The notes: a model not told the origin generated them from the sequence alone. A stretch of 64,000 bases of DNA from Patescibacteria group bacterium (GCA_041649675.1 JBAZMQ010000003.1:5335-69334), one strand, 5' to 3'; counted from the stretch's first letter, positions 6,487 through 62,086 are shown. Translations and numbers: made by a program.

Positions 6487-6548
6487 TACACTAAAGCAGT
6501 CTGATATAACAATTAACAGTTAACTGTTAACTGTTAAAGGTTTATCTT

Positions 6549-10246: not shown

Positions 10247-10280
10247 ATCGAATCAGGAATCGTGAATTATGAATTATGGT

Positions 10281-10316
10281 TTTATTTCCTTAATTCCTAA
10301 TTCCTAATTCCTAATT
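10281..10316. repeat. tandem heptamer repeat (cctaatt, about 4 copies) with an upstream inverted aggaat
   Basis: ccttaattcctaattcctaattcctaattct in the clpP upstream region. Confidence 0.6.
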
Positions 10317-10323
10317 CTAAAAT

Positions 10324-11902: not shown

Positions 11903-12067
11903 ATCATTAACAACTGAGAGGTTATCAAGAGTGCTACTTGCTAAGGGTACTGGCCCAAAAGTAGCCAGCAACTCGGTTTCCTATCTGGAAGCGACAGAGT
12001 GCTAAATCCAGCCCATTAGGGGAAGATAACAAGGATTTTAAAGACTCTTGCCCAAGAGTTTTTTTGA
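11903..12067 (+). ncRNA. candidate small structured RNA or 5' leader (about 165 nt) bounded by a promoter and a terminator
   Basis: GC-rich. Internal pairings gctactt/aagtagc and ccag/ctgg; agagtgcta occurs twice. Ends in the hairpin aagactcttg-ccc-aagagttttttt. A second hairpin (gatcgaaaaaagctaa...ttagctttttttgatc) follows before the next CDS. Confidence 0.3.
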
Positions 12068-12165: not shown

Positions 12166-12669
12166 ATGGGCCTTGTTATACAATTTCAACGACGAGCGAT
12201 TGAGGCTTTATTGCCTCATGTAATTGAAAAACCGATTCCGTCCAATTTAGCACTGGGTGCAGTTAACTTTTCTATCAAGGGTGGATCTCGTTTATTTGCC
12301 TTGGGTGTAAGTCCGGGATATGGCACTTGTGCCTCAATCCATGACATGAATGTCTTGGTTCTGGGAGAACAAAGACCAAAGTCTACTCCTTGGCTTCCAG
12401 CCCAACAGCCGATTTGCCATTGTGCCTATGCCGTTTTGTTACGTGACCTAACTAAAGGTGAATATGTGGAATGGTGCAGGTCCAACCTTTATCATGTTCC
12501 CAATCTTTCACAGCGGGTGATTGAAGGATTGCCAACTTCTCAAGCTATTGAAAAGTACATTAGCCGTACGGTCTGCTGTGTTGAGTTACTCCAAGTCGCC
12601 CAAGTCGCCCAAGCGGCTATTACTTGGACAATAATTGGCCATAAGGCTTTTTACGTAGTCCTGTGTTAG
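12166..12669 (+). CDS. hypothetical protein (167 aa), GC-rich
   Basis: Strong RBS aaaaaggagggtcggac before ATG. No recognisable motif. Confidence 0.5.
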   Translation: MGLVIQFQRRAIEALLPHVIEKPIPSNLALGAVNFSIKGGSRLFALGVSPGYGTCASIHDMNVLVLGEQRPKSTPWLPAQQPICHCAYAVLLRDLTKGEYVEWCRSNLYHVPNLSQRVIEGLPTSQAIEKYISRTVCCVELLQVAQVAQAAITWTIIGHKAFYVVLC

Positions 12670-13048: not shown

Positions 13049-14575
13049 ATGCAAACAATTTATTGGGCAATCGCGCTTTTTTGTGGTGTCATTGGCGGGA
13101 TTGCTTTTGGTTATCAATTGAGAAAGATCTGGGCGGTAAAGCGCAAAGATACAATTGAGACCAAAGTTGAAAATTTAATCAATGAAGCCAAGGCCAAGCA
13201 AAAAGAAATTTTATTGGCCGCCAACGACAAAGCCTTAAAGATTATTGAAGACGCCAAAGTTGAAGAGCGCCAACGCCAACAGGATTTATTACGGGCGCAG
13301 AAGCGCTTGGAAAGCCGCGAATCACTTTTTGATCAAAAGTTATTGGAATTAGAAAATAAAAAACAGGAACTTTTGGAAAAAGCCGAACGGATTGATAAGA
13401 TCAAATCTGAGATTGGTAAAATTAAAGAAGAGCAAATGGCCAAGCTGGAAAAGATTGCCGGTTTGACCCAAGAAGAGGCCAAAAAGGTTTTATTAGACAA
13501 TACCGAACGCGATATTAAAGATGATTTAGTGGTTAGAATTAAAAAATTAACCAATCAAGCCAGCGAGGAATTGGACAAAAAGGCCAAAGAAATTTTGTCC
13601 TTGGCCATTCAACGCTGTGCGGTTTCCCATGCCACTGAAAGCACCACTACGACCATTGATTTGCCTTCTGACGAAATGAAGGGCCGCATCATCGGCCGTG
13701 AAGGCAGAAATATTAGAACGGTTGAGCGCTTAACCGGTGTAGAAATTATTGTTGATGATACGCCTCAAGCCATTACTATTTCGGGTTTTTCGCCGATTAG
13801 ACGGCAAGTGGCCAAGCGAGCATTGGAAAAATTGATTTTGGATGGCCGGATTCACCCGGTAAAAATTGAAGAAGCAATTAACAATGCCAAGAAAGAAATC
13901 GCTACCGAAATTAAAGAAGCCGGTGAAAATACTTTGTATGAATTGGGTATTACTGGTGTTGATCCAAAATTAGTTCAGATTTTAGGCCGCTTAAAATACC
14001 GTACCAGTTACGGCCAAAATATTTTGCAGCACTCAATTGAAATTGCTAATCTGGCAGCGTTATTAGCCGAAGATTTAGGTGCCGATGTGGCCATTGCCAA
14101 AAAAGGTGGATTATTCCATGATATTGGTAAAGCCGTTGACCATGAAGTTCAAGGCAGCCATCCGGAAATTGGTTATGACATTTTGAAAAAATTTGGCATG
14201 CCTGAAGAAATTGCTTATATTGCCCGGGGTCATCATGAAGATAGTCCAAAGACTTTGGAAGCAATTATTGTTAAAGTGGCTGATGCCATTTCCGGTGCTC
14301 GGCCAGGCGCTAGAAAAGATACTTATGAACAATACCTCCAACGGTTGGATGAATTGGAAAAAGTGGCCACCAGTTTTGCCGGTGTGGAAAAATCTTATGC
14401 CATTCAGGCCGGTCGGGAAATTCGCGTCTTTGTTATGCCCGAAGAAATTGATGATTTAGCGGCTTTGAAATTAGCCAAAGAAATTGCTAAAAAAATTGAA
14501 GCGGAATTACGCTATCCCGGTGAAATTAAAGTCACCGTTATTAGAGAAACTCGGATAATTGAATACGCCAGATAA
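13049..14575 (+). CDS. rny: ribonuclease Y
   Basis: N-terminal TM helix, coiled coil, KH domain (GRIIGREGRNIRTVERLTGVEIIVDD), HD domain (LFHDIGKA...H). Length 508 aa. Confidence 0.9.
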   Translation: MQTIYWAIALFCGVIGGIAFGYQLRKIWAVKRKDTIETKVENLINEAKAKQKEILLAANDKALKIIEDAKVEERQRQQDLLRAQKRLESRESLFDQKLLELENKKQELLEKAERIDKIKSEIGKIKEEQMAKLEKIAGLTQEEAKKVLLDNTERDIKDDLVVRIKKLTNQASEELDKKAKEILSLAIQRCAVSHATESTTTTIDLPSDEMKGRIIGREGRNIRTVERLTGVEIIVDDTPQAITISGFSPIRRQVAKRALEKLILDGRIHPVKIEEAINNAKKEIATEIKEAGENTLYELGITGVDPKLVQILGRLKYRTSYGQNILQHSIEIANLAALLAEDLGADVAIAKKGGLFHDIGKAVDHEVQGSHPEIGYDILKKFGMPEEIAYIARGHHEDSPKTLEAIIVKVADAISGARPGARKDTYEQYLQRLDELEKVATSFAGVEKSYAIQAGREIRVFVMPEEIDDLAALKLAKEIAKKIEAELRYPGEIKVTVIRETRIIEYAR

Positions 14576-14579
14576 TTAG

Positions 14580-14612
14580 TTGGTAGCTTTTTAGCTTCTT
14601 AGCTTTTTAGGT
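14580..14612. repeat. tandem tagctt(t/c)t repeats forming the left flank of four-helix-bundle cassette 1
   Basis: tagctttttagcttcttagctttttagg. Its reverse complement recurs at 15045-15070. Confidence 0.6.
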
Positions 14613-14684
14613 AATTGTTCGAACTGTAAAATTATAAGTTTAAATATTCAACATAGCGCGCTTTAATTTTAATTAAATTGCGTT

Positions 14685-15047
14685 ATGGTAAAAATATTCA
14701 CTTATAAAGATCTAATCGTTTGGCAAAAAGCCATGGATCTGGTCGTGGCTGTTTATCAGTTAACTAAAGATTTTCCGCATCAAGAGATTTATGGCTTAGT
14801 CTCTCAAATGAGACGGTGCGTAGTCTCAATTCCGTCCAATATTGCTGAAGGGCGTCGAAGGGGTAGCCGAAAAGATTATCGTCAATTTTTATTAATTGCT
14901 TATGCTTCAGGTTCGGAGTTAGAAACCCAGCTTGAAATTATTAAAAGATTAAATTTTTGTAACAATCAAGATTCTTTAAAAGCAGATCAATTGTTAGATG
15001 AAGTAATGCGAATGCTAAACAAAATTTTAAGTATTCTAAAAAGCTAA
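14685..15047 (+). CDS. four helix bundle protein (TIGR02436 family; formerly annotated as 23S rRNA intervening-sequence protein)
   Basis: DLIVWQKAMDLVVAVYQLTKDFP...IYGLVSQMRRCVVSIPSNIAEG is the family signature. Paralog at 37678-38040. Confidence 0.8.
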   Translation: MVKIFTYKDLIVWQKAMDLVVAVYQLTKDFPHQEIYGLVSQMRRCVVSIPSNIAEGRRRGSRKDYRQFLLIAYASGSELETQLEIIKRLNFCNNQDSLKADQLLDEVMRMLNKILSILKS

Positions 15048-15070
15048 TAAAGCTACAAGCTAAGAAGCTA
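15045..15070. repeat. right-flank repeat of cassette 1 (aagctacaagctaagaagcta), reverse complement of the left-flank array
   Basis: The reverse complement gtttagcttcttagcttgtagctt matches the left flank tagcttcttagct. Confidence 0.6.
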
Positions 15071-15074
15071 AACT

Positions 15075-15869
15075 ATGAAAATATTATTCTTTGGTGATAT
15101 AATTGGTAAAATTGGCCGTAATGGACTCAAAAAAATCCTGCCGGAATTGAAAGCAGAATTTGAGCCTGATTTGACAATTGCTAATGCCGAAAATTTAGCT
15201 CATGGTTTGGGCGTTACCTCAAAGATTTTACAGGAAATGATTGAATCGGGAATTGATATTTTTACTTCTGGCAATCATGTTTTGTCCAAACCCGAAGCGG
15301 AGAAATTATTGACTGTACCTAATCCAGTTTTACTGCGGCCGGCCAATTACGTGGGCGAATTCCCGGGTGTTGGCTTTAAAGTTATTCCCGTCGGCTCCAA
15401 GTCAGTTTTAGTAATTAATTTGATGGGCCAGGTATTTATTAAAGACAATTTTGATAATCCGTTTCATAAAATTGATGAAATTTTGTATAAGTTTCAAAAG
15501 GATAACTTAGCCGCTATCATCATCGACTTTCACGCTGAAGCGACTTCGGAAAAAGTGGCTTTTGGCTGGTATGTTGACGGGCAAGTTTCGGCGGTTTTAG
15601 GCACTCATACTCATGTGCCAACCGCTGATTTGCGAATTTTGCCCCAAGGGACGGCTTATATTTCTGATGTTGGTATGGTTGGTGCAACTGACTCAGTTAT
15701 TGGTGACAAGAAAGAGCCAATCATCCAATCATTTCTAGCCGGTACTGGACCAGCCATTGAAATACCCGAGGAAGGCGAAGTCACAGTTAATGGTGTCTTT
15801 TTAGAGATTGATGCCAAGACAAAAAAAACGGTAAATTTTAGCCGGGTAGACAGAAAAGTTAAAGTGTAG
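15075..15869 (+). CDS. ymdB: YmdB-like metallophosphoesterase (2',3'-cyclic-nucleotide phosphodiesterase family)
   Basis: MKILFFGDIIGKIGR...ANAEN...GNH...FHAE...GTHTHV is collinear with the YmdB family. Position immediately downstream of rny matches Bacillus synteny. Confidence 0.8.
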   Translation: MKILFFGDIIGKIGRNGLKKILPELKAEFEPDLTIANAENLAHGLGVTSKILQEMIESGIDIFTSGNHVLSKPEAEKLLTVPNPVLLRPANYVGEFPGVGFKVIPVGSKSVLVINLMGQVFIKDNFDNPFHKIDEILYKFQKDNLAAIIIDFHAEATSEKVAFGWYVDGQVSAVLGTHTHVPTADLRILPQGTAYISDVGMVGATDSVIGDKKEPIIQSFLAGTGPAIEIPEEGEVTVNGVFLEIDAKTKKTVNFSRVDRKVKV

Positions 15870-19224: not shown

Positions 19225-19920
19225 TTACTTATCCCAATTTTTTTTCTTTAGTCCGACAGCAGCCGCTTTAACCTGAGCTTCTTGCTTGCTGGAGCCACTG
19301 GCCGTGGCGATTAATTCTTGGTCCAAATAAACTCCAACCTGGAATTTTTTTGCGTGATCCGGGCCACTTTCTTTTATTACGTTATAAGTTGGAGTAATAC
19401 CCAATTTTTCCTGGGCGATTTCTTGAAATTTACTTTTAGGATCTAAATAAAGTTGATTGGATAGAATATGTGGTAGTTCGGGCAGTAAGAATGTATGAAT
19501 AAATTGTTCAGCGACTTGATAGCCCTGGTCAAGATAAATTGAGCCAATAAGGGCCTCAAAAGCATTGGCTAAAATATAGTTTCTAGCCTTACTGTTTGTG
19601 TCTTTGGCTTCGCCTTTGCTTAAGTAAAGGTATGCCTCCAAATCAATTTTTTTAGCGATTTTTGAAAGCATTTGGCTATTAACCAAACTGGCTCGCCAGT
19701 TGGTTAGTTCGCCTTCTGGATTGGGATAATTTTGGTAGAGGTATTCGGTGACAACCAATTCCAAAACAGCATCACCTAGAAATTCCATTCGTTCATTATG
19801 ATTAATACCAAACCCTGGATTTTCGTTAATATAGGATCGGTGAACAAAAGCTTGCTTGAGCAAGTCGGAATTTTTAAATTTAATTTTTACTCTTTTTTCT
19901 AGTTGGGAAAAATCTTTCAT
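19225..19920 (-). CDS. rnc: ribonuclease III
   Basis: Signature ERMEFLGDAVLELVVTEYLY. C-terminal dsRBD. Length 231 aa. Confidence 0.9.
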   Translation of the reverse strand: MKDFSQLEKRVKIKFKNSDLLKQAFVHRSYINENPGFGINHNERMEFLGDAVLELVVTEYLYQNYPNPEGELTNWRASLVNSQMLSKIAKKIDLEAYLYLSKGEAKDTNSKARNYILANAFEALIGSIYLDQGYQVAEQFIHTFLLPELPHILSNQLYLDPKSKFQEIAQEKLGITPTYNVIKESGPDHAKKFQVGVYLDQELIATASGSSKQEAQVKAAAVGLKKKNWDK

Positions 19921-20012
19921 GTTAGTTAGCTTGTAGCTTGTCCCGACTCTTTAGTCGGGATTCCGAATTTACATCGGGATAGCTTGTAGCTTGTAGGTAA
20001 TGTTGTATTAAA
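19921..20012. repeat. tagcttgtagcttgt direct repeats flanking cccgac hairpins
   Basis: gttagcttgtagcttgt-cccgactctttagtcggga-ttccgaatttacatcggga-tagcttgtagcttgtagg between rnc and nusB. Confidence 0.6.
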
Positions 20013-20041
20013 CCTAAAAGCTGTAAACTAAAAACTAATAT

Positions 20042-35861: not shown

Positions 35862-37601
35862 TTAGCTGGAATACATCTTTTCAATTTCTTTTTGAAAATG
35901 TTCTTCAATGGTTTTTCGTCGCAGTTTTAGAGTAGGAGTCAGCTCGTCTTTTTCTTGGCAAAATTCACTGGGCAAAATTTTAAATTTTCTAACTTTTTCC
36001 CAATCGGCCAACTGCTGATTAATTTTTTCAATTCTTTCTTTAAATAAAGCGTTTAATTTTGGCTCATTAATTAATTGGTCCGGTTCCTTGCTGGTAATAC
36101 CAATTTGGTTTAAAGCAATTGCTATTTCCTGCCAATCGGGAATAATTAAAGCCACTAAATAGCTGTGTTTATTGCCGCAAACCATTGATTGGTTAATATA
36201 ACGGTCATTATTTAAAATTAATTCAATTTGTTCTGGCCAAGCAATTTTACCGTTAGAAAAAGAAATCATTTCTTTTTTTCGGCCGATAATCATTAAAAAT
36301 CCGTCACTGCTTAAAAATCCTAAATCGCCAGTGTGCAGCCAACCTTCAGCATCAATTGCCTCTTTAGTTAGTTCCGGCTTTTGCCAATAGCCAGCCATAA
36401 CGTTTGGGCCTTTGACTAAAATTTCTTTATCTGGCGCAATTTTAATTTCCACTCCGGGTAATTGTTGGCCAACTGTTCCAAATTTAAAATTGTTTTGCCG
36501 ATTGACCGTTATTACCGGTGAAGTTTCGGTTAAGCCGTAGCCTTCGGTAATAACAATTCCGAGCCGGGCAAAAAATCTAGCGAGCTTATGGTTTAAAGTC
36601 GCGCCGCCAGAAATTGTTAATCGTAGCCTGCCGCCAAAGGTGGCTCTGATTTTATGAAAGACCAAAAAGTCGGCAACTAAATGAGAAATAGTTTTTGGCT
36701 GCTGTTTTAAAGCCCAGGTAAAAATTTTGTATTTTATTTTGCTGCCTTTTTTAGTTTTTTCCCAAATCCCGTCATGAACTCGTTCAAAAATCCGCGGAAT
36801 GGAAACTAAAACTGTCGGTTTAATTTCTTTTAAATTGAGCAGCAGCGTTTTTATGTTTTCGGCATAAGCAATACAGCTGCCGCGGCAAATCAAAGGGGCA
36901 TAATAGCCAACAGTTCGTTCCAAAACATGGGATAACGGTAAAAAAGAAAGTAAAATATCATGTTCATTAACCGGTACGGCGGTAACCGAAGCTTCGGCAT
37001 CAAATAAAAAATTGCGGTGAGTTAGCATTACGCCCTTAGGTACGGCTGTGGTGCCGGAAGTATAAATAATGCTGGCAATATCATTGGCTTCGGCCTGAAT
37101 GGTGATTGATTGATTTGAGTTTTCGCCCAATTCCATTACTGTCTGAAGGCTGACTATTTTTTTATCCAAATCGTGGTGATTATTGGGTTGGTCCAAGTCA
37201 ATAAAAATAATAGTTTTTAAATGGGGTAAATCTTTGATTATTAGCAGGAGCTTATTAAATTGTTCCTGATTGGAAACCAACAAAATCGAGCTTTGGGAGT
37301 CGTTTAAGATATGTTGAATAATTTTTGGTGATAAAGTGGTATGAACCGGTACAGTAATTGCGCCCAAAGTCATAATCGCTAAATCAGCTCTGACCCATTC
37401 GGTTCGGTTTTCGCTTAAAATGGCCACGCGATCGCCTTGATTAATCCCCAGTTCTTTCAAACCTTTAGCCATTATATTCACTCTTTTTTGCAGTTGGTCA
37501 AAAGTAATATCAATATAGGCGCCGTGGTATTTGAATTTTAAAGCCGGGCGCTTGGCAAATTTTTGTGCTGTTTCAGTAAATTTTTGGGGGATGGTCAGCA
37601 T
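35862..37601 (-). CDS. long-chain-fatty-acid--CoA ligase (AMP-binding family)
   Basis: AMP-binding motif YTSGTTAVPKGVMLTHRN, TEGYGLTE, GWLHTGD. Length 579 aa. Confidence 0.9.
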   Translation of the reverse strand: MLTIPQKFTETAQKFAKRPALKFKYHGAYIDITFDQLQKRVNIMAKGLKELGINQGDRVAILSENRTEWVRADLAIMTLGAITVPVHTTLSPKIIQHILNDSQSSILLVSNQEQFNKLLLIIKDLPHLKTIIFIDLDQPNNHHDLDKKIVSLQTVMELGENSNQSITIQAEANDIASIIYTSGTTAVPKGVMLTHRNFLFDAEASVTAVPVNEHDILLSFLPLSHVLERTVGYYAPLICRGSCIAYAENIKTLLLNLKEIKPTVLVSIPRIFERVHDGIWEKTKKGSKIKYKIFTWALKQQPKTISHLVADFLVFHKIRATFGGRLRLTISGGATLNHKLARFFARLGIVITEGYGLTETSPVITVNRQNNFKFGTVGQQLPGVEIKIAPDKEILVKGPNVMAGYWQKPELTKEAIDAEGWLHTGDLGFLSSDGFLMIIGRKKEMISFSNGKIAWPEQIELILNNDRYINQSMVCGNKHSYLVALIIPDWQEIAIALNQIGITSKEPDQLINEPKLNALFKERIEKINQQLADWEKVRKFKILPSEFCQEKDELTPTLKLRRKTIEEHFQKEIEKMYSS

Positions 37602-37603
37602 GT

Positions 37604-37660
37604 TAGGTAATTAGGTAACTAGGTAATTAGGTAACTAGGTAGTTAGGTTACCGACTTGGT
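37604..37660. repeat. tandem taggtaa(t/c) array, one flank of four-helix-bundle cassette 2
   Basis: taggtaattaggtaactaggtaattaggtaactaggtagttaggttacc. Confidence 0.7.
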
Positions 37661-37677
37661 TAGGGAGATATTTATAA

Positions 37678-38040
37678 TTAAATTTTAAGCTTGTTTATTA
37701 AAGAATTCAACATTTTCATTACTTCCAATAAAATACTGCCGACTTCCGAATAGTCAAGATATTTGCCGAAAGGCAATTGTTTTGTTATCTCTAATTGAGC
37801 TTCTAGTTCAGCTCCCGACCCAAAAGCATGTAAAAGAAAAACCCGATAGTTCTTTTGGCTGCCTCGAGCCTTGCCCTCAGCAATATTTGAGGGAATTGAA
37901 ACAGCGGCTCTTCTCATTTGAGCTGATAGACCATAAACTTCCGAAGACGGGAATTTTTCTGTTAGTTTGTATATGGCAATAACCAACTTAATTGATTTTT
38001 GCCAGACAATCAAATCTCGATAATTTGTGATTTGCGCCAT
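37678..38040 (-). CDS. four helix bundle protein (TIGR02436 family), paralog of 14685-15047
   Basis: DLIVWQKSIKLVIAIYKLTEKFP...VYGLSAQMRRAAVSIPSNIAEG. Confidence 0.8.
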   Translation of the reverse strand: MAQITNYRDLIVWQKSIKLVIAIYKLTEKFPSSEVYGLSAQMRRAAVSIPSNIAEGKARGSQKNYRVFLLHAFGSGAELEAQLEITKQLPFGKYLDYSEVGSILLEVMKMLNSLINKLKI

Positions 38041-38094
38041 ACTTTTTGGTTAATATTAAGTTTGGCGCTATGTTGATTTGTCAATTTTTTAGTC

Positions 38095-38150
38095 CCTAAT
38101 CACCTAATTTCCCAACCTAACTTCCTAATTACCTAATTACCTATTATTAC
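38095..38150. repeat. inverted copy of the taggtaat array (cctaattacctaattacct), other flank of cassette 2
   Basis: cctaatcacctaatttcccaacctaacttcctaattacctaattacctatt is the reverse complement of the 37604-37660 array. Confidence 0.7.
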
Positions 38151-38213
38151 TAAAGATCCGCTCCCCTGGCCTACCCATCGTCCGAGGGCGATAGGTAAGC
38201 CACGAAGGCGGAT

Positions 38214-39053
38214 TTAAATTTCAGAGATAAATCTATAGATTGCTTTGTAAATTAGCCAGCGTTTTTGATCTAAAGCAATATTGTGGCTGACGCCGTCAAC
38301 CCATAAAATCCGTTTATCGTTGGAAGCTAGTTTTTCGTGCAAGTATTGAGCGGAACTAGGATGGACAACGGCATCGGTATTAGAATGGATAATCAAAGTC
38401 GGGGCGGTAATATTTTTTAGGCTTGGGATGGTTGTTGTTTTTATAAATCGAAAAAGATTTTTTAAACTGGAAATGGGAATTACCGGATAGACTACTTGTT
38501 CCCCCTCGGCATAGGTAAATTTATAATTATTGCCTCTTTTTTTATAATATTTAATAAAAAAGCCGTAAGTGTATACCCGAAGTTTTGCTAATTTTTGCCA
38601 TTTGATTTTAATTGGTGTACCAATGGAAATTATTCCGGCCAAAGGATTGTTGTGTTTAGTGGCGAGATGAAAAGCTAGGTTGCCGCCAAAAGAACTGCCG
38701 ATAATAAAAATTTTTTTAGTGCTATTTTTTAAAAATAAATAGGCTTCTTCAACTGATTGTTGCCAATCTTGAATCGTGGTTTTTTCTAAATCTTGGGGGG
38801 TAGTGCCGTGGCCGGCAATTTTGGGAGCAAAAACCGTTAAGCCTTTGTCGGCCAAGTATTGGGCTAAGTCGCAGAACTCATACGGCGTACTGGTAAAGCC
38901 ATGTAATAATAAGACCCCGACTTCATTGCTGCGGGGAAAATAAATTGTTTTATCAGGATTTATAATATTTTTGAATTTAGAAAAATCAACATTTGCAAAC
39001 GGATCAGATTTGTTAGTACGTTTTTCGATGAATTCCAAAATTTCTGCAACCAT
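38214..39053 (-). CDS. alpha/beta hydrolase (esterase/lipase-like)
   Basis: GxSxG nucleophile elbow (GSSFGG) and HG oxyanion motif (LLHGF). Confidence 0.75.
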   Translation of the reverse strand: MVAEILEFIEKRTNKSDPFANVDFSKFKNIINPDKTIYFPRSNEVGVLLLHGFTSTPYEFCDLAQYLADKGLTVFAPKIAGHGTTPQDLEKTTIQDWQQSVEEAYLFLKNSTKKIFIIGSSFGGNLAFHLATKHNNPLAGIISIGTPIKIKWQKLAKLRVYTYGFFIKYYKKRGNNYKFTYAEGEQVVYPVIPISSLKNLFRFIKTTTIPSLKNITAPTLIIHSNTDAVVHPSSAQYLHEKLASNDKRILWVDGVSHNIALDQKRWLIYKAIYRFISEI

Positions 39054-62035: not shown

Positions 62036-62086
62036 CCTAATTTCCTAATTTCCTAACAACCTAACTTACTAATAACCTAATCAAAC
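62036..62086. repeat. tandem cctaa(t/c)tt-type short repeats upstream of hppA
   Basis: cccctaatttcctaatttcctaacaacctaacttactaataacctaatc. Same family as 10281-10316 and 37604-38150. Confidence 0.6.

What the first reader, a model, noticed from the sequence alone, without database searches (positions are those of the whole stretch)
14580..15070. Four-helix-bundle protein gene as a cassette with inverted-repeat flanks, splitting rny-ymdB
rny is normally followed directly by ymdB. Here a 120-aa four-helix-bundle protein gene (the family once called 23S rRNA intervening-sequence protein) sits between them. Its flanks are tagcttNt tandem repeats on the left and their reverse complement on the right. 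The paralog at 37678-38040 is likewise flanked by inverted taggtaat arrays (37604-37660 and 38095-38150). Two independent copies, each bracketed by inverted tandem-repeat arrays, look like a mobile or recombination-prone cassette. That would fit the family's known association with rRNA intervening sequences.
Basis: partly seen in the sequence, partly recalled or inferred. Interest (0 to 1): 0.6.

Follow-up and report, generated by a model that had tools for sequence, protein, structure and literature searches.

The report
Four-helix-bundle gene inside repeat-armed hairpin
A small gene of unknown function sits between two essential genes, bracketed by mirror-image arrays of 8-base repeats; the same gene-plus-arms layout occurs across the protein family in many bacterial groups and matches the "intervening sequences" known from ribosomal RNA genes, here found between protein-coding genes instead.

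Summary
Two PF05635/TIGR02436 four-helix-bundle (4HB) genes, at 14685-15047(+) and 37678-38040(-), are each bracketed by inverted arrays of tandem octamers. As RNA, each pair of arms is predicted to close a ~30-bp terminal stem (z = -4.1 and -7.9).

Both sites are polymorphic. The sister genome has an empty rny-ymdB spacer, and none of 80 related genomes carries the gene there. The closest fadD orthologues lack the second copy.

The layout is family-wide. In 67 non-redundant loci, a left and right arm from the same cassette are far more complementary than arms from different cassettes (median score 32 vs 14, p = 6e-27). Tandem 7/8-mer arrays flank 58 of 67 genes upstream and 55 of 67 downstream. 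Finished plasmids of Nostoc, Anabaena, Gemmatirosa and Riemerella show the same layout. Gene-less hairpins built from the same repeat units also occur, two of them in this window, one directly upstream of rnc.

The layout matches the Coxiella 23S rRNA intervening sequence: an S23p ORF, heptamer repeats, a 28-bp stem and RNase III excision.

Best reading: an IVS-type hairpin element living in intercistronic spacers, probably cut by RNase III, and gained and lost over time. The way it moves and the role of the protein remain unknown.

The parts
13049..14575 (+). rny (RNase Y), the upstream neighbour; its stop codon TAA is at 14573-14575
   Evidence: Pfam RNase_Y_N + KH + HD
14576..14615 (+). Cassette 1 left arm: TTAG TTGG TAGCTTTT TAGCTTCT TAGCTTTT TAGGTAAT. 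It begins directly after the rny stop codon.
   Evidence: it pairs with 15036-15072 in the MFE and centroid folds
14616..14684 (+). Leader between the left arm and the ATG. It holds the motif TCAACATAGCGC (14648-14659), shared with cassette 2 and with the L001 orthologue, and a hairpin that covers the start codon. It looks promoter-like, but the consensus scan did not call a promoter.
   Evidence: (I1)
14685..15047 (+). Four-helix-bundle protein gene, copy 1 (120 aa)
   Evidence: PF05635 134 bits, TIGR02436 127 bits, PDB 2GSC E = 3e-25
15036..15072 (+). Cassette 1 right arm (reverse complement of the left-arm units). It overlaps the last 4 codons of the ORF and ends 2 nt before the ymdB ATG.
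15075..15869 (+). ymdB, the downstream neighbour
   Evidence: Pfam YmdB 309 bits
38093..38144 (-). Cassette 2 left arm in gene orientation: TAGGTAAT TAGGTAAT TAGGAAGT TAGGTTGGGAAAT TAGGTGAT TAGGGA
38041..38092 (-). Cassette 2 leader, with TCAACATAGCGC at 38065-38076 and TTGACA just upstream of the motif
37678..38040 (-). Four-helix-bundle protein gene, copy 2 (120 aa, 57% identical to copy 1)
37602..37652 (-). Cassette 2 right arm, which abuts the ATG of the fadD-like gene (35862-37601)
19921..20038 (-). Gene-less array hairpin of the same unit type that fills the nusB-rnc spacer. Left arm: TAGTTTT TAGTTTA CAGCTTT TAGGTTT. Right arm: TTACCTA CAAGCTA CAAGCTA ... CAAGCTA CAAGCTA. Two small extra hairpins are inserted inside the right arm.
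   Evidence: fold z = -5.95; neighbours identified by Pfam
10250..10317 (+). Gene-less array hairpin (GAATTAT x2 against CCTAATT x4) between a DHH-family gene and clpP; it ends 6 nt before the clpP ATG
   Evidence: fold z = -5.35
62036..62081 (+). Array of right-arm type (CCTAATTT/CCTAACAA) without a detectable partner arm, 10 nt upstream of the start of the H+-PPase-like gene
19225..19920 (-). rnc (RNase III), the enzyme proposed to cut the arm-arm stems
   Evidence: Pfam Ribonucleas_3_3 145 bits + dsrm

Best explanation
What it is. Each copy is an intervening-sequence-type element. It consists of a PF05635 four-helix-bundle gene sitting in the loop of a long hairpin. The two arms of the hairpin are inverted arrays of tandem 7-8-nt repeats. 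The element occupies the whole spacer between two co-directional host genes.

How it probably works. When the region is read through from rny, the arms pair into a ~30-bp double-stranded RNA stem. By analogy with the rRNA intervening sequences, RNase III (encoded in this window) cuts that stem. The cut releases the 4HB message and separates the rny and ymdB messages. This would explain why the insertion is tolerated inside essential transcription units. Arms made of tandem repeats can pair in several registers and can be rebuilt by slippage. That fits the observation that arm units differ from locus to locus while the two arms of one locus stay complementary.

Evolution. The element is gained and lost over evolutionary time. 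Gene-less hairpins built from the same units are its ORF-less counterparts.

Shown here: the anatomy, the complementarity of the arms, the family-wide association, presence/absence polymorphism at both sites, co-orientation with neighbouring genes, and the presence of rnc.

Inferred: co-transcription with the neighbours, RNase III cleavage, and near-neutral or selfish status.

Unknown: how the DNA moves and what the protein does.
For: Anatomy and folds: (terminal stems, z = -4.1 and -7.9).

Family-wide association in 67 non-redundant loci:
- Inverted complementarity between the two arms of one cassette has a median score of 32, against 14 for arms from different cassettes and 14 for the direct-orientation control (p = 6e-27).
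- Tandem 7/8-mer arrays (period 7/14 most common) occur upstream in 58/67, downstream in 55/67 and on both sides in 50/67. The controls are 31/320 random segments.
- Finished isolate plasmids from three further phyla show the same layout.

Operon position: the upstream neighbour is co-directional in 53/63 loci and the downstream neighbour in 43/57. Spacers have medians of 53 and 37 nt and are essentially filled by the arms.

Polymorphism.

Specificity: under strict criteria, the only long-loop array hairpins in the window are the two 4HB cassettes. All 10 array hairpins found in 476 kb of control loci have loops of 100 nt or less.

Precedent: the Coxiella IVS has an S23p ORF, a 28-bp terminal stem, 3-4 tandem heptamers at its 5' end, and RNase III cleavage at the first repeat (PMC4990558). 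ORFs of this family also occur in rRNA insertions of CPR bacteria (PMC11270868).

The rnc gene is present, and a gene-less array hairpin sits in its own leader.
Against: - Mismatches between arms show no excess of G:U over A:C (60 vs 73). There is therefore no signature of selection acting specifically on the sense RNA. A DNA-level process, such as template switching within the palindrome, could keep the arms complementary instead.
- Cassette 2 lies just downstream of a conserved terminator-like hairpin. Its left arm may therefore rarely be transcribed together with its right arm.
- Both window cassettes carry a conserved, promoter-like leader inside the stem. Transcripts starting there would lack the left arm.
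- The protein is very strongly conserved, with 41 invariant columns across 16 sequences. This argues that it does something, whereas in Coxiella the ORF seems not to be expressed.
- No transcript or cleavage data exist for this organism.
Confidence: 0.5

Rival explanations
1. DNA-level mobile element. On this reading the array hairpins are the ends or target of a mobile element. The 4HB protein, an Avd-like nucleic-acid-binding pentamer, would be its element-encoded accessory or mobilisation factor. Gene-less array hairpins would be non-autonomous, MITE-like derivatives.
For: - Distribution is patchy at two sites.
- Gene-less hairpins with the same unit type occur in the same contigs as cassettes: L093, L117, L145, L143, L154.
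- Arm similarity rises with protein similarity while the flanking context is unrelated.
- The same arm unit (ATTCTGA/CTCCTGA) appears in Nostoc and in Geobacter (PMC2700814).
- The absence of a G:U bias fits DNA-level maintenance of the arms.
Against: - No catalytic domain is present in the 120-aa protein.
- No target-site duplication can be defined, because the whole spacer differs between occupied and empty alleles.
- No near-identical copies were found. The two window copies are 57% identical and have different arm units.
- Arm length and sequence are heterogeneous, unlike transposon ends.
Confidence: 0.2
2. Host regulatory element. On this reading the tandem arrays are binding sites for a DNA- or RNA-binding regulator, possibly the 4HB pentamer itself. 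They would control or insulate the neighbouring cistrons, for example through stop codons in all three frames after the upstream gene and a G-poor, unstructured leader before the downstream ATG.
For: - Strand asymmetry relative to transcription is consistent: the left arm is C-poor (11%) and the right arm is G-poor (11%).
- TAG is the commonest trinucleotide in left arms, and CTA/TAA in right arms. Stop codons occur in all three frames in 55% of left arms against 14% of shuffles, and in 40% of right arms against 8%.
- Right arms and solo arrays end 0-10 nt before the next ATG.
- Comparable paired arrays in Geobacter were proposed to be global-regulator (IHF/HU) sites (PMC2700814).
Against: - Sister genomes do without the element at the same operon junctions.
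- Unit sequences differ widely between loci while the protein is highly conserved, which argues against sequence-specific recognition.
- Many arrays in GC-rich genomes use CAG rather than TAG units and carry no stop codons.
Confidence: 0.2
3. Diversity-generating retroelement remnant. On this reading the 4HB protein is an Avd accessory protein and the repeats are related to template/variable repeats.
For: Weak similarity to bAvd (PF22296, 25 bits) and to NF033474 (24 bits).
Against: Both scores are far below the curated cut-offs of 40 and 80 bits. The neighbours are rny, ymdB, a fadD-like gene and an esterase, with no reverse transcriptase. The repeats are 8-nt tandem units, not a TR/VR pair.
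Confidence: 0.02
4. Chance juxtaposition of low-complexity AT-rich intergenic repeats with an ordinary small gene.
For: The genome is AT-rich (38% GC). Lenient TRF settings also call arrays in 30% of other intergenic spacers.
Against: The comparison of arms from the same versus different cassettes gives p = 6e-27. The same layout appears in GC-rich genomes and in finished isolate plasmids. No shuffle folds as well as the real sequence.
Confidence: 0.02

Closest known systems
ORF-containing 23S rRNA intervening sequences (Coxiella burnetii helix 45; Leptospira and others)
   Same: The ORF belongs to the same protein family (S23p = PF05635). [quoted passage not shown] The arm is built from tandem short repeats (GACAGAT x3-4 in Coxiella, variable in number). 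Distribution is sporadic. ORF-less versions exist. RNase III is the processing enzyme (PMC4990558; PMC11270868).
   Different: The element here lies between protein-coding genes (rny-ymdB; esterase-fadD), not in an rRNA helix. The units are octamers (TAGCTTNT/TAGGTAAT). A ~70-nt conserved leader sits between the left arm and the ATG. The protein is under strong conservation, whereas in Coxiella the ORF is decaying and apparently not expressed.
Paired 'global regulator binding sites' (classes 1-3) of Geobacter metallireducens
   Same: Pairs of tandem octa- or heptanucleotide arrays on opposite strands, a variable distance apart, in intergenic spacers including intra-operon ones such as nifD-nifK, proB-proA and moaA-mosC. 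The class 3 unit MTYCTGA equals the right-arm unit of the Nostoc punctiforme 4HB cassette (PMC2700814).
   Different: They were described without any link to a four-helix-bundle gene and were interpreted as IHF/HU-type DNA sites. IS110-family insertions often lie between the Geobacter pairs.
Cyanobacterial STRR short tandemly repeated heptamers (my own knowledge: Mazel et al. 1990; not checked here)
   Same: Tandem heptamers in intergenic regions. The cyanobacterial 4HB cassettes seen here carry arrays of that kind, ACAGGTG and GGAGTCA.
   Different: STRRs were described as a repeat class, not as inverted pairs bracketing one gene family.
Avd, the accessory protein of diversity-generating retroelements
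   Same: A homologous four-helix-bundle fold and pentamer (weak Pfam/NCBIfam hits; homology noted in PMC10053308).
   Different: There is no reverse transcriptase and no template/variable repeat pair. Scores fall below the Avd family cut-offs.
MITE / REP-BIME type intergenic hairpin repeats
   Same: Multicopy intergenic hairpins, with gene-containing and gene-less versions and presence/absence polymorphism.
   Different: The arms are register-free tandem 7-8-mers rather than fixed terminal inverted repeats. There is no target-site duplication and no transposase.

Membership tests
PF05635 / TIGR02436 four-helix-bundle protein (23S rRNA IVS protein, S23p) | Full-length match to the family HMM above the curated cut-off | tested here: met
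   PF05635: 134.3 and 116.3 bits (cut-off 33.8), covering model positions 1-106 of 106. TIGR02436: 127 and 113 bits (cut-off 24).
PF05635 / TIGR02436 four-helix-bundle protein (23S rRNA IVS protein, S23p) | Conserved R-x3-S-x3-N-x2-E motif and homology to the solved pentameric 4HB structure XCC0516 | tested here: met
   R44, S48, N52 and E55 are invariant in alignment A1. PDB 2GSC matches at E = 2.8e-25. The motif is as reported in PMC3936711. Pentamer formation itself was not tested.
23S rRNA intervening sequence (IVS) element | Inserted in a 23S (or 16S) rRNA helix | tested here: not met
   Rfam finds only tRNAs in the window. The flanking genes are rny and ymdB, and an esterase and a fadD-like gene.
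23S rRNA intervening sequence (IVS) element | Terminal inverted repeats that form a long stem enclosing the element | tested here: met
   Arm-arm stems of about 30 bp in both the MFE and the centroid folds, z = -4.1 and -7.9.
23S rRNA intervening sequence (IVS) element | Tandem short repeats in the arm (Coxiella: heptamers, variable copy number) | tested here: met
   Octamer arrays of 3.4-5.8 copies. Heptamers or octamers occur in 50/67 family loci on both sides.
23S rRNA intervening sequence (IVS) element | Excised from the precursor RNA by RNase III | not testable with these tools
   Only the enzyme gene is shown to be present (19225-19920).
DGR accessory protein Avd | Avd HMM above cut-off, with an adjacent reverse transcriptase and a TR/VR pair | tested here: not met
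   NF033474 scores 24 bits against a cut-off of 80. PF22296 scores 25 and 21 bits against a cut-off of 40. The neighbouring genes are not reverse transcriptases.
Transposon / MITE | Target-site duplication, a transposase (or derivation from an element that has one), and near-identical copies | tested here: not met
   Occupied and empty alleles differ over the whole spacer, so no duplication can be defined. No transposase domain is present. The two copies are 57% identical at protein level and have different arm units.
Known anti-phage defence proteins (PADLOC) | Match to a defence-system model | tested here: not met
   No hit at E <= 0.01.

The most novel reading that the evidence does not exclude
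PF05635 four-helix-bundle genes together with their inverted heptamer/octamer arrays would form one very widespread, so far unrecognised class of hairpin-loop genetic elements in bacteria. The classical ORF-containing rRNA intervening sequences would be only the rRNA-resident special case. The abundant gene-less array hairpins would be the non-autonomous relatives of these elements; candidates include the Geobacter 'regulator sites' and perhaps the cyanobacterial STRRs. The conserved pentameric protein would act on the repeat arms to maintain, copy or move them.
Probability: 0.3. Interest if true: 0.8.

Novelty: new variant of a known kind. Interest (0 to 1): 0.62.

Why it matters
PF05635/TIGR02436 is a very large family of unknown function. 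One search from this 120-aa protein reached its 8000-candidate limit, with 7995 significant hits. The family is especially common in Patescibacteria and cyanobacteria.

The origin, mobility and purpose of rRNA intervening sequences have been open questions since about 1990. This work shows that the same gene-plus-repeat-arm module lives in ordinary intercistronic spacers, is gained and lost between sister genomes, and has gene-less counterparts. That turns the question into a testable one:
- Do the arms direct RNase III processing of mRNAs?
- Does the protein bind the arms?
- How do the arms stay complementary while their units drift?

It also gives a simple explanation for the reported 'CRISPR association' of this family, namely cassettes inserted in cas operons. 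It supplies a practical annotation rule as well: look for inverted 7/8-mer arrays around these genes, because they can be mistaken for regulatory sites or mini-CRISPRs.

Tried and rejected
1. RNAduplex energies for arms from the same versus different cassettes were too noisy: GC content and large loops dominated (-59 vs -41 kcal/mol). I replaced them with local alignment scores.
2. The sigma-70 and terminator consensus scans called nothing upstream of either 4HB gene. The promoter-like look of the leader (TTGACA / TTTAAA ... TTAATA / TTTAAT with 17-19-nt spacing) therefore rests on inspection only.
3. The G:U versus A:C mismatch test for RNA-level selection gave no bias.
4. I looked for a target-site duplication by comparing occupied alleles (W, L001) with empty ones (L011, L017). 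The spacers are unalignable apart from the stop and start codons, so no insertion boundaries could be defined.
5. Rfam found no family over the cassettes, and PADLOC gave no hit.
6. Six literature searches found no paper stating that these genes are generally bracketed by inverted tandem arrays. Only partial precedents turned up (Coxiella, Geobacter). The library is incomplete, and Ralph & McClelland 1993 could not be read.
7. The idea that the arrays are universally three-frame stop signals was rejected as a general rule. It holds in 55% of left arms, but many GC-rich arrays use CAG units.
8. The control for 'other intergenic spacers' (45/150 with arrays) is inflated. It includes gene-less hairpins of the same kind, and the window enters twice.

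Full report
**What is in the window**

The 120-aa ORF at 14685-15047(+) and its paralogue at 37678-38040(-) are 57% identical. Both are full-length members of PF05635 (134 and 116 bits) and TIGR02436. The first is homologous to the solved pentameric four-helix-bundle protein XCC0516 (PDB 2GSC, E = 3e-25). Similarity to the DGR protein Avd is weak and below threshold.

The neighbours of copy 1 are rny (13049-14575) and ymdB (15075-15869). Copy 2 lies between an alpha/beta hydrolase gene (38214-39053) and a fadD-like acyl-CoA ligase gene (35862-37601), all on the minus strand. An exact protein match shows that the window comes from a Patescibacteria MAG. Its nearest relatives are Candidatus Buchananbacteria.

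**The flanks**

Cassette 1:
- The left arm starts directly after the rny stop codon, at 14576-14615: TTAG TTGG TAGCTTTT TAGCTTCT TAGCTTTT TAGGTAAT.
- The right arm, 15036-15072, is its reverse complement. It begins inside the last four codons of the ORF (CTA AAA AGC TAA) and stops 2 nt before the ymdB ATG.
- The best stretch is a perfect 16-mer.

Cassette 2:
- The arms are TAGGTAAT-type arrays at 38093-38144 and 37602-37652, with 30 nt at 93% complementarity.
- The right arm abuts the fadD ATG.

Folded as RNA, both whole cassettes (507 and 555 nt) close with the arm-arm stem in the MFE and the centroid structures. The z-scores are -4.1 and -7.9, and none of 100 shuffles folds as well.

Between the left arm and the ATG, both copies carry a ~55-70-nt leader with the shared 12-mer TCAACATAGCGC. 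There are four hits at up to one mismatch in the window against 0.2 expected, and the two exact ones are these. Among the 170 loci held at that point, the motif otherwise occurs only in L001-L006, six copies of the one orthologous cassette. The leader looks promoter-like by eye, but the consensus scan did not call it.

**Is the gene an insertion?**

Yes, on the comparative evidence.

Site 1, rny-ymdB:
- In 80 species-level genomes retrieved with YmdB, rny lies directly upstream in 68. The gap is 2-271 nt in 66 of these. None has a 4HB gene there.
- The closest relative, L011 (RNase Y 94%, YmdB 88%), has a 49-nt spacer holding a simple hairpin. L012, L013 and L014 have spacers of 2-15 nt beyond the stop codon.
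- One more distant relative, L001-L006 (RNase Y 85%), does carry a clearly orthologous cassette. It has the same arms and the same leader motif, and its protein is 74% identical.
- In a neighbour-joining tree of RNase Y + YmdB, W pairs with the empty L011, and the occupied L001 pairs with the empty L017.
- The distribution is therefore patchy. It requires either several losses or transfer between lineages.

Site 2, esterase-fadD:
- The spacer is empty in L171 and L173 (fadD 78% and 75% identical).
- In L174 (73%) it holds only a left-type array, TAGCTGG TAGCTTG TAGCTGG TAGGAAG TAGGTGT.

Occupied and empty alleles differ over the whole spacer, so no insertion boundary or target-site duplication can be defined.

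**The layout belongs to the whole family**

Close homologues in unrelated contexts have the same TAGCTT/TAGGTT left arrays and AAGCTA/AACCTA right arrays. One lies inside a type IV pilin operon in a Collierbacteria genome (L007). Another lies between metG and tatD (L008).

A metagenome scan gave 80 further loci with proteins 46-70% identical, from genomes with very different GC contents. Results for 67 non-redundant cassettes:

| Measure | Result |
|---|---|
| Local alignment score, left arm vs reverse complement of right arm, same cassette | median 32 |
| Same score, arms from different cassettes | median 14 (Mann-Whitney p = 6e-27) |
| Same score, direct-orientation control | median 14 |
| Cassettes above the 95th percentile of the different-cassette scores | 46/67 |
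| TRF array upstream / downstream / both | 58/67, 55/67, 50/67 |
| Upstream arrays by period | 39 with period 7 or 14; 14 with period 8 or 16 |
| Random segments of the same loci with an array | 31/320 |

Unit sequences are locus-specific. Examples are TAGTTTG, CAGTGAA, TAGTGAT, GGCCAGT, GGGAAGT and TAGGGTA.

The polarity is constant. The arm upstream of the gene is C-poor, with TAG and AGT as its commonest trinucleotides. The downstream arm is G-poor, with CTA and TAA commonest.

Neighbouring genes are mostly co-directional (53/63 upstream, 43/57 downstream). The spacers have medians of 53 and 37 nt, so the arms essentially fill them.

Finished plasmids from isolates rule out an assembly artefact:

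| Plasmid | Left unit | Right unit | Note |
|---|---|---|---|
| Nostoc punctiforme pNPUN01 | GGAGTCA / GAATTCA | CTCCTGA / ATTCTGA | |
| Anabaena sp. 90 pANA02 | ACAGGTG | CACCTGT | between cas6 and cas4 |
| Gemmatirosa plasmid 1 | GCAGGAG-type | CTCCTGC | |
| Riemerella plasmid | AAGGTTC-type | GAACCTT | |

**Gene-less relatives**

The same contigs carry short intercistronic hairpins built from the same units, with no gene in the loop. Examples are L093 4226-4304 and 4758-4843, L117 4489-4583 and L145 3175-3337. In other Buchananbacteria, the rny-ymdB spacer itself is such a hairpin: L018 has GGGAGTA x4 against TACTCCC x4, and L016 is similar.

The window has two:
- 10250-10317, between a DHH-family gene and clpP (z = -5.35).
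- 19921-20038 on the minus strand, between nusB and rnc (z = -5.95).

It also has one unpaired right-type array upstream of the H+-PPase-like gene, at 62036-62081.

Under strict criteria, 476 kb of control Patescibacteria loci hold 10 array hairpins, all with loops of 100 nt or less. The only long-loop ones in the window are the two 4HB cassettes. In this sample, then, when a gene sits inside such a hairpin it is this gene.

**Comparison with what is known**

The Coxiella burnetii 23S rRNA IVS is the closest described relative. It is 428 nt long and carries an S23p (PF05635) ORF. A 28-bp stem forms from its terminal inverted repeats. Three or four tandem heptamers (GACAGAT, variable in number) lie at its 5' end. 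RNase III cleaves at the first repeat (PMC4990558). ORFs of this family also occur in 16S and 23S insertions of CPR bacteria (PMC11270868).

The G. metallireducens genome paper catalogued 24 + 21 + 8 pairs of tandem octa- or heptanucleotide arrays on opposite strands in intergenic spacers. It proposed them as global-regulator sites, and IS110 elements often lie between them (PMC2700814). Its class 3 unit, MTYCTGA, equals the Nostoc cassette's right-arm unit.

Two CRISPR surveys list this family as cas-associated (PMC3936711, PMC10910872). The Anabaena cassette between cas6 and cas4 suggests that this association reflects insertion into operons.

I found no paper stating that the family is generally bracketed by inverted tandem arrays, or that IVS-type modules occupy mRNA spacers. 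The library is incomplete, however.

**Mechanism**

The best-supported reading is an IVS-type element in an intercistronic spacer. A read-through transcript folds the arms into a ~30-bp dsRNA. RNase III, whose gene is at 19225-19920, cuts it. The flanking messages are thereby separated and the 4HB message is released. That would explain why the insertion is tolerated inside essential units.

The anatomy, the polymorphism, the co-orientation and the presence of the enzyme are shown here. Co-transcription and cleavage are inferred from the rRNA precedent.

Points against:
- There is no G:U over A:C bias among arm mismatches (60 vs 73), so DNA-level maintenance of the palindrome is equally possible.
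- A terminator-like hairpin lies upstream of cassette 2.
- An internal leader may start transcripts that lack the left arm.
- The protein is strongly conserved, with 41 invariant columns in 16 sequences, so it is not a mere passenger.

Rivals:
- A DNA-level mobile element with the 4HB protein as accessory factor and gene-less hairpins as MITE-like derivatives.
- A host regulatory or insulating element. Stop codons occur in all three frames in 55% of left arms against 14% of shuffles, and the Geobacter paper proposed such arrays as regulator sites.

These readings are not mutually exclusive. A DGR remnant and chance are effectively excluded.

**Verdict**

The arms also exist without the gene, and no transposition mechanism is evident.
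- The element is a new variant of a known kind: an IVS-type module outside rRNA.
- The family-wide rule it exposes is the more interesting result.

Noticed in passing
window 19225-20038 (- strand): The RNase III gene (rnc) is immediately preceded by a gene-less array hairpin that fills the nusB-rnc spacer. In E. coli, RNase III regulates itself by cutting a hairpin in its own leader (my own knowledge), so this could be an analogous site.
   Followed up: partly
window 19941-19979: Two small hairpins (TCCCGACT-CTTT-AGTCGGGA, and TTCCGA...TCGGGA) are inserted between CAAGCTA units of the right arm of the nusB-rnc hairpin. The first has no other copy in the window.
   Followed up: partly
window 11919-12032 (+) and 12166-12669: A SAM-riboswitch-like match (36 bits, below the gathering score of 44.4; E = 4e-6) lies upstream of an odd 167-aa ORF that has no Pfam hit. 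The region between clpP/neighbouring genes and rny is largely non-coding.
   Followed up: no
window ~38155-38213 (- strand); L171 2355-2415; L173 2265-2325; L174 2375-2435: A conserved, long, terminator-like hairpin (..CCGC..CTTACCTATCGCCCTCGGACGATGGGTAGG..GCGGATTTT) follows the esterase gene in all relatives. Cassette 2 is inserted just after it. It has no Rfam family.
   Followed up: no
L176 (Anabaena sp. 90 plasmid pANA02, NC_019429.1 43071-45833): A 4HB cassette with ACAGGTG/CACCTGT arrays sits between cas6 and cas4 of a type I-D CRISPR-Cas operon. The right array falls inside the annotated 5' end of cas4. This probably explains the published 'CRISPR association' of 23S_rRNA_IVP.
   Followed up: partly
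L177 (Nostoc punctiforme pNPUN01, 1617-1982 of the record) compared with the supplement of PMC2700814: The Nostoc cassette arms (ATTCTGA/CTCCTGA) use the same heptamer as the class 3 paired 'regulator sites' of Geobacter metallireducens (MTYCTGA), across phyla.
   Followed up: no
window 6507-6537 (+): A self-complementary heptamer array (TAACAGT TAACTGT TAACTGT) lies 12 nt upstream of tRNA-Cys.
   Followed up: no
L038 2152-2919 and L051 (Kuenenbacteria): An unrelated 255-aa ORF occupies the rny-ymdB spacer, so this junction also accepts other inserts.
   Followed up: no
L093 2360-2500 and 2850-2960; L094 160-295: Some cassettes have compound flanks: a complete gene-less left-right hairpin (loop GGAATTNAA) sits next to the gene in addition to the outer arms. 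This suggests serial duplication or nesting of array hairpins.
   Followed up: no
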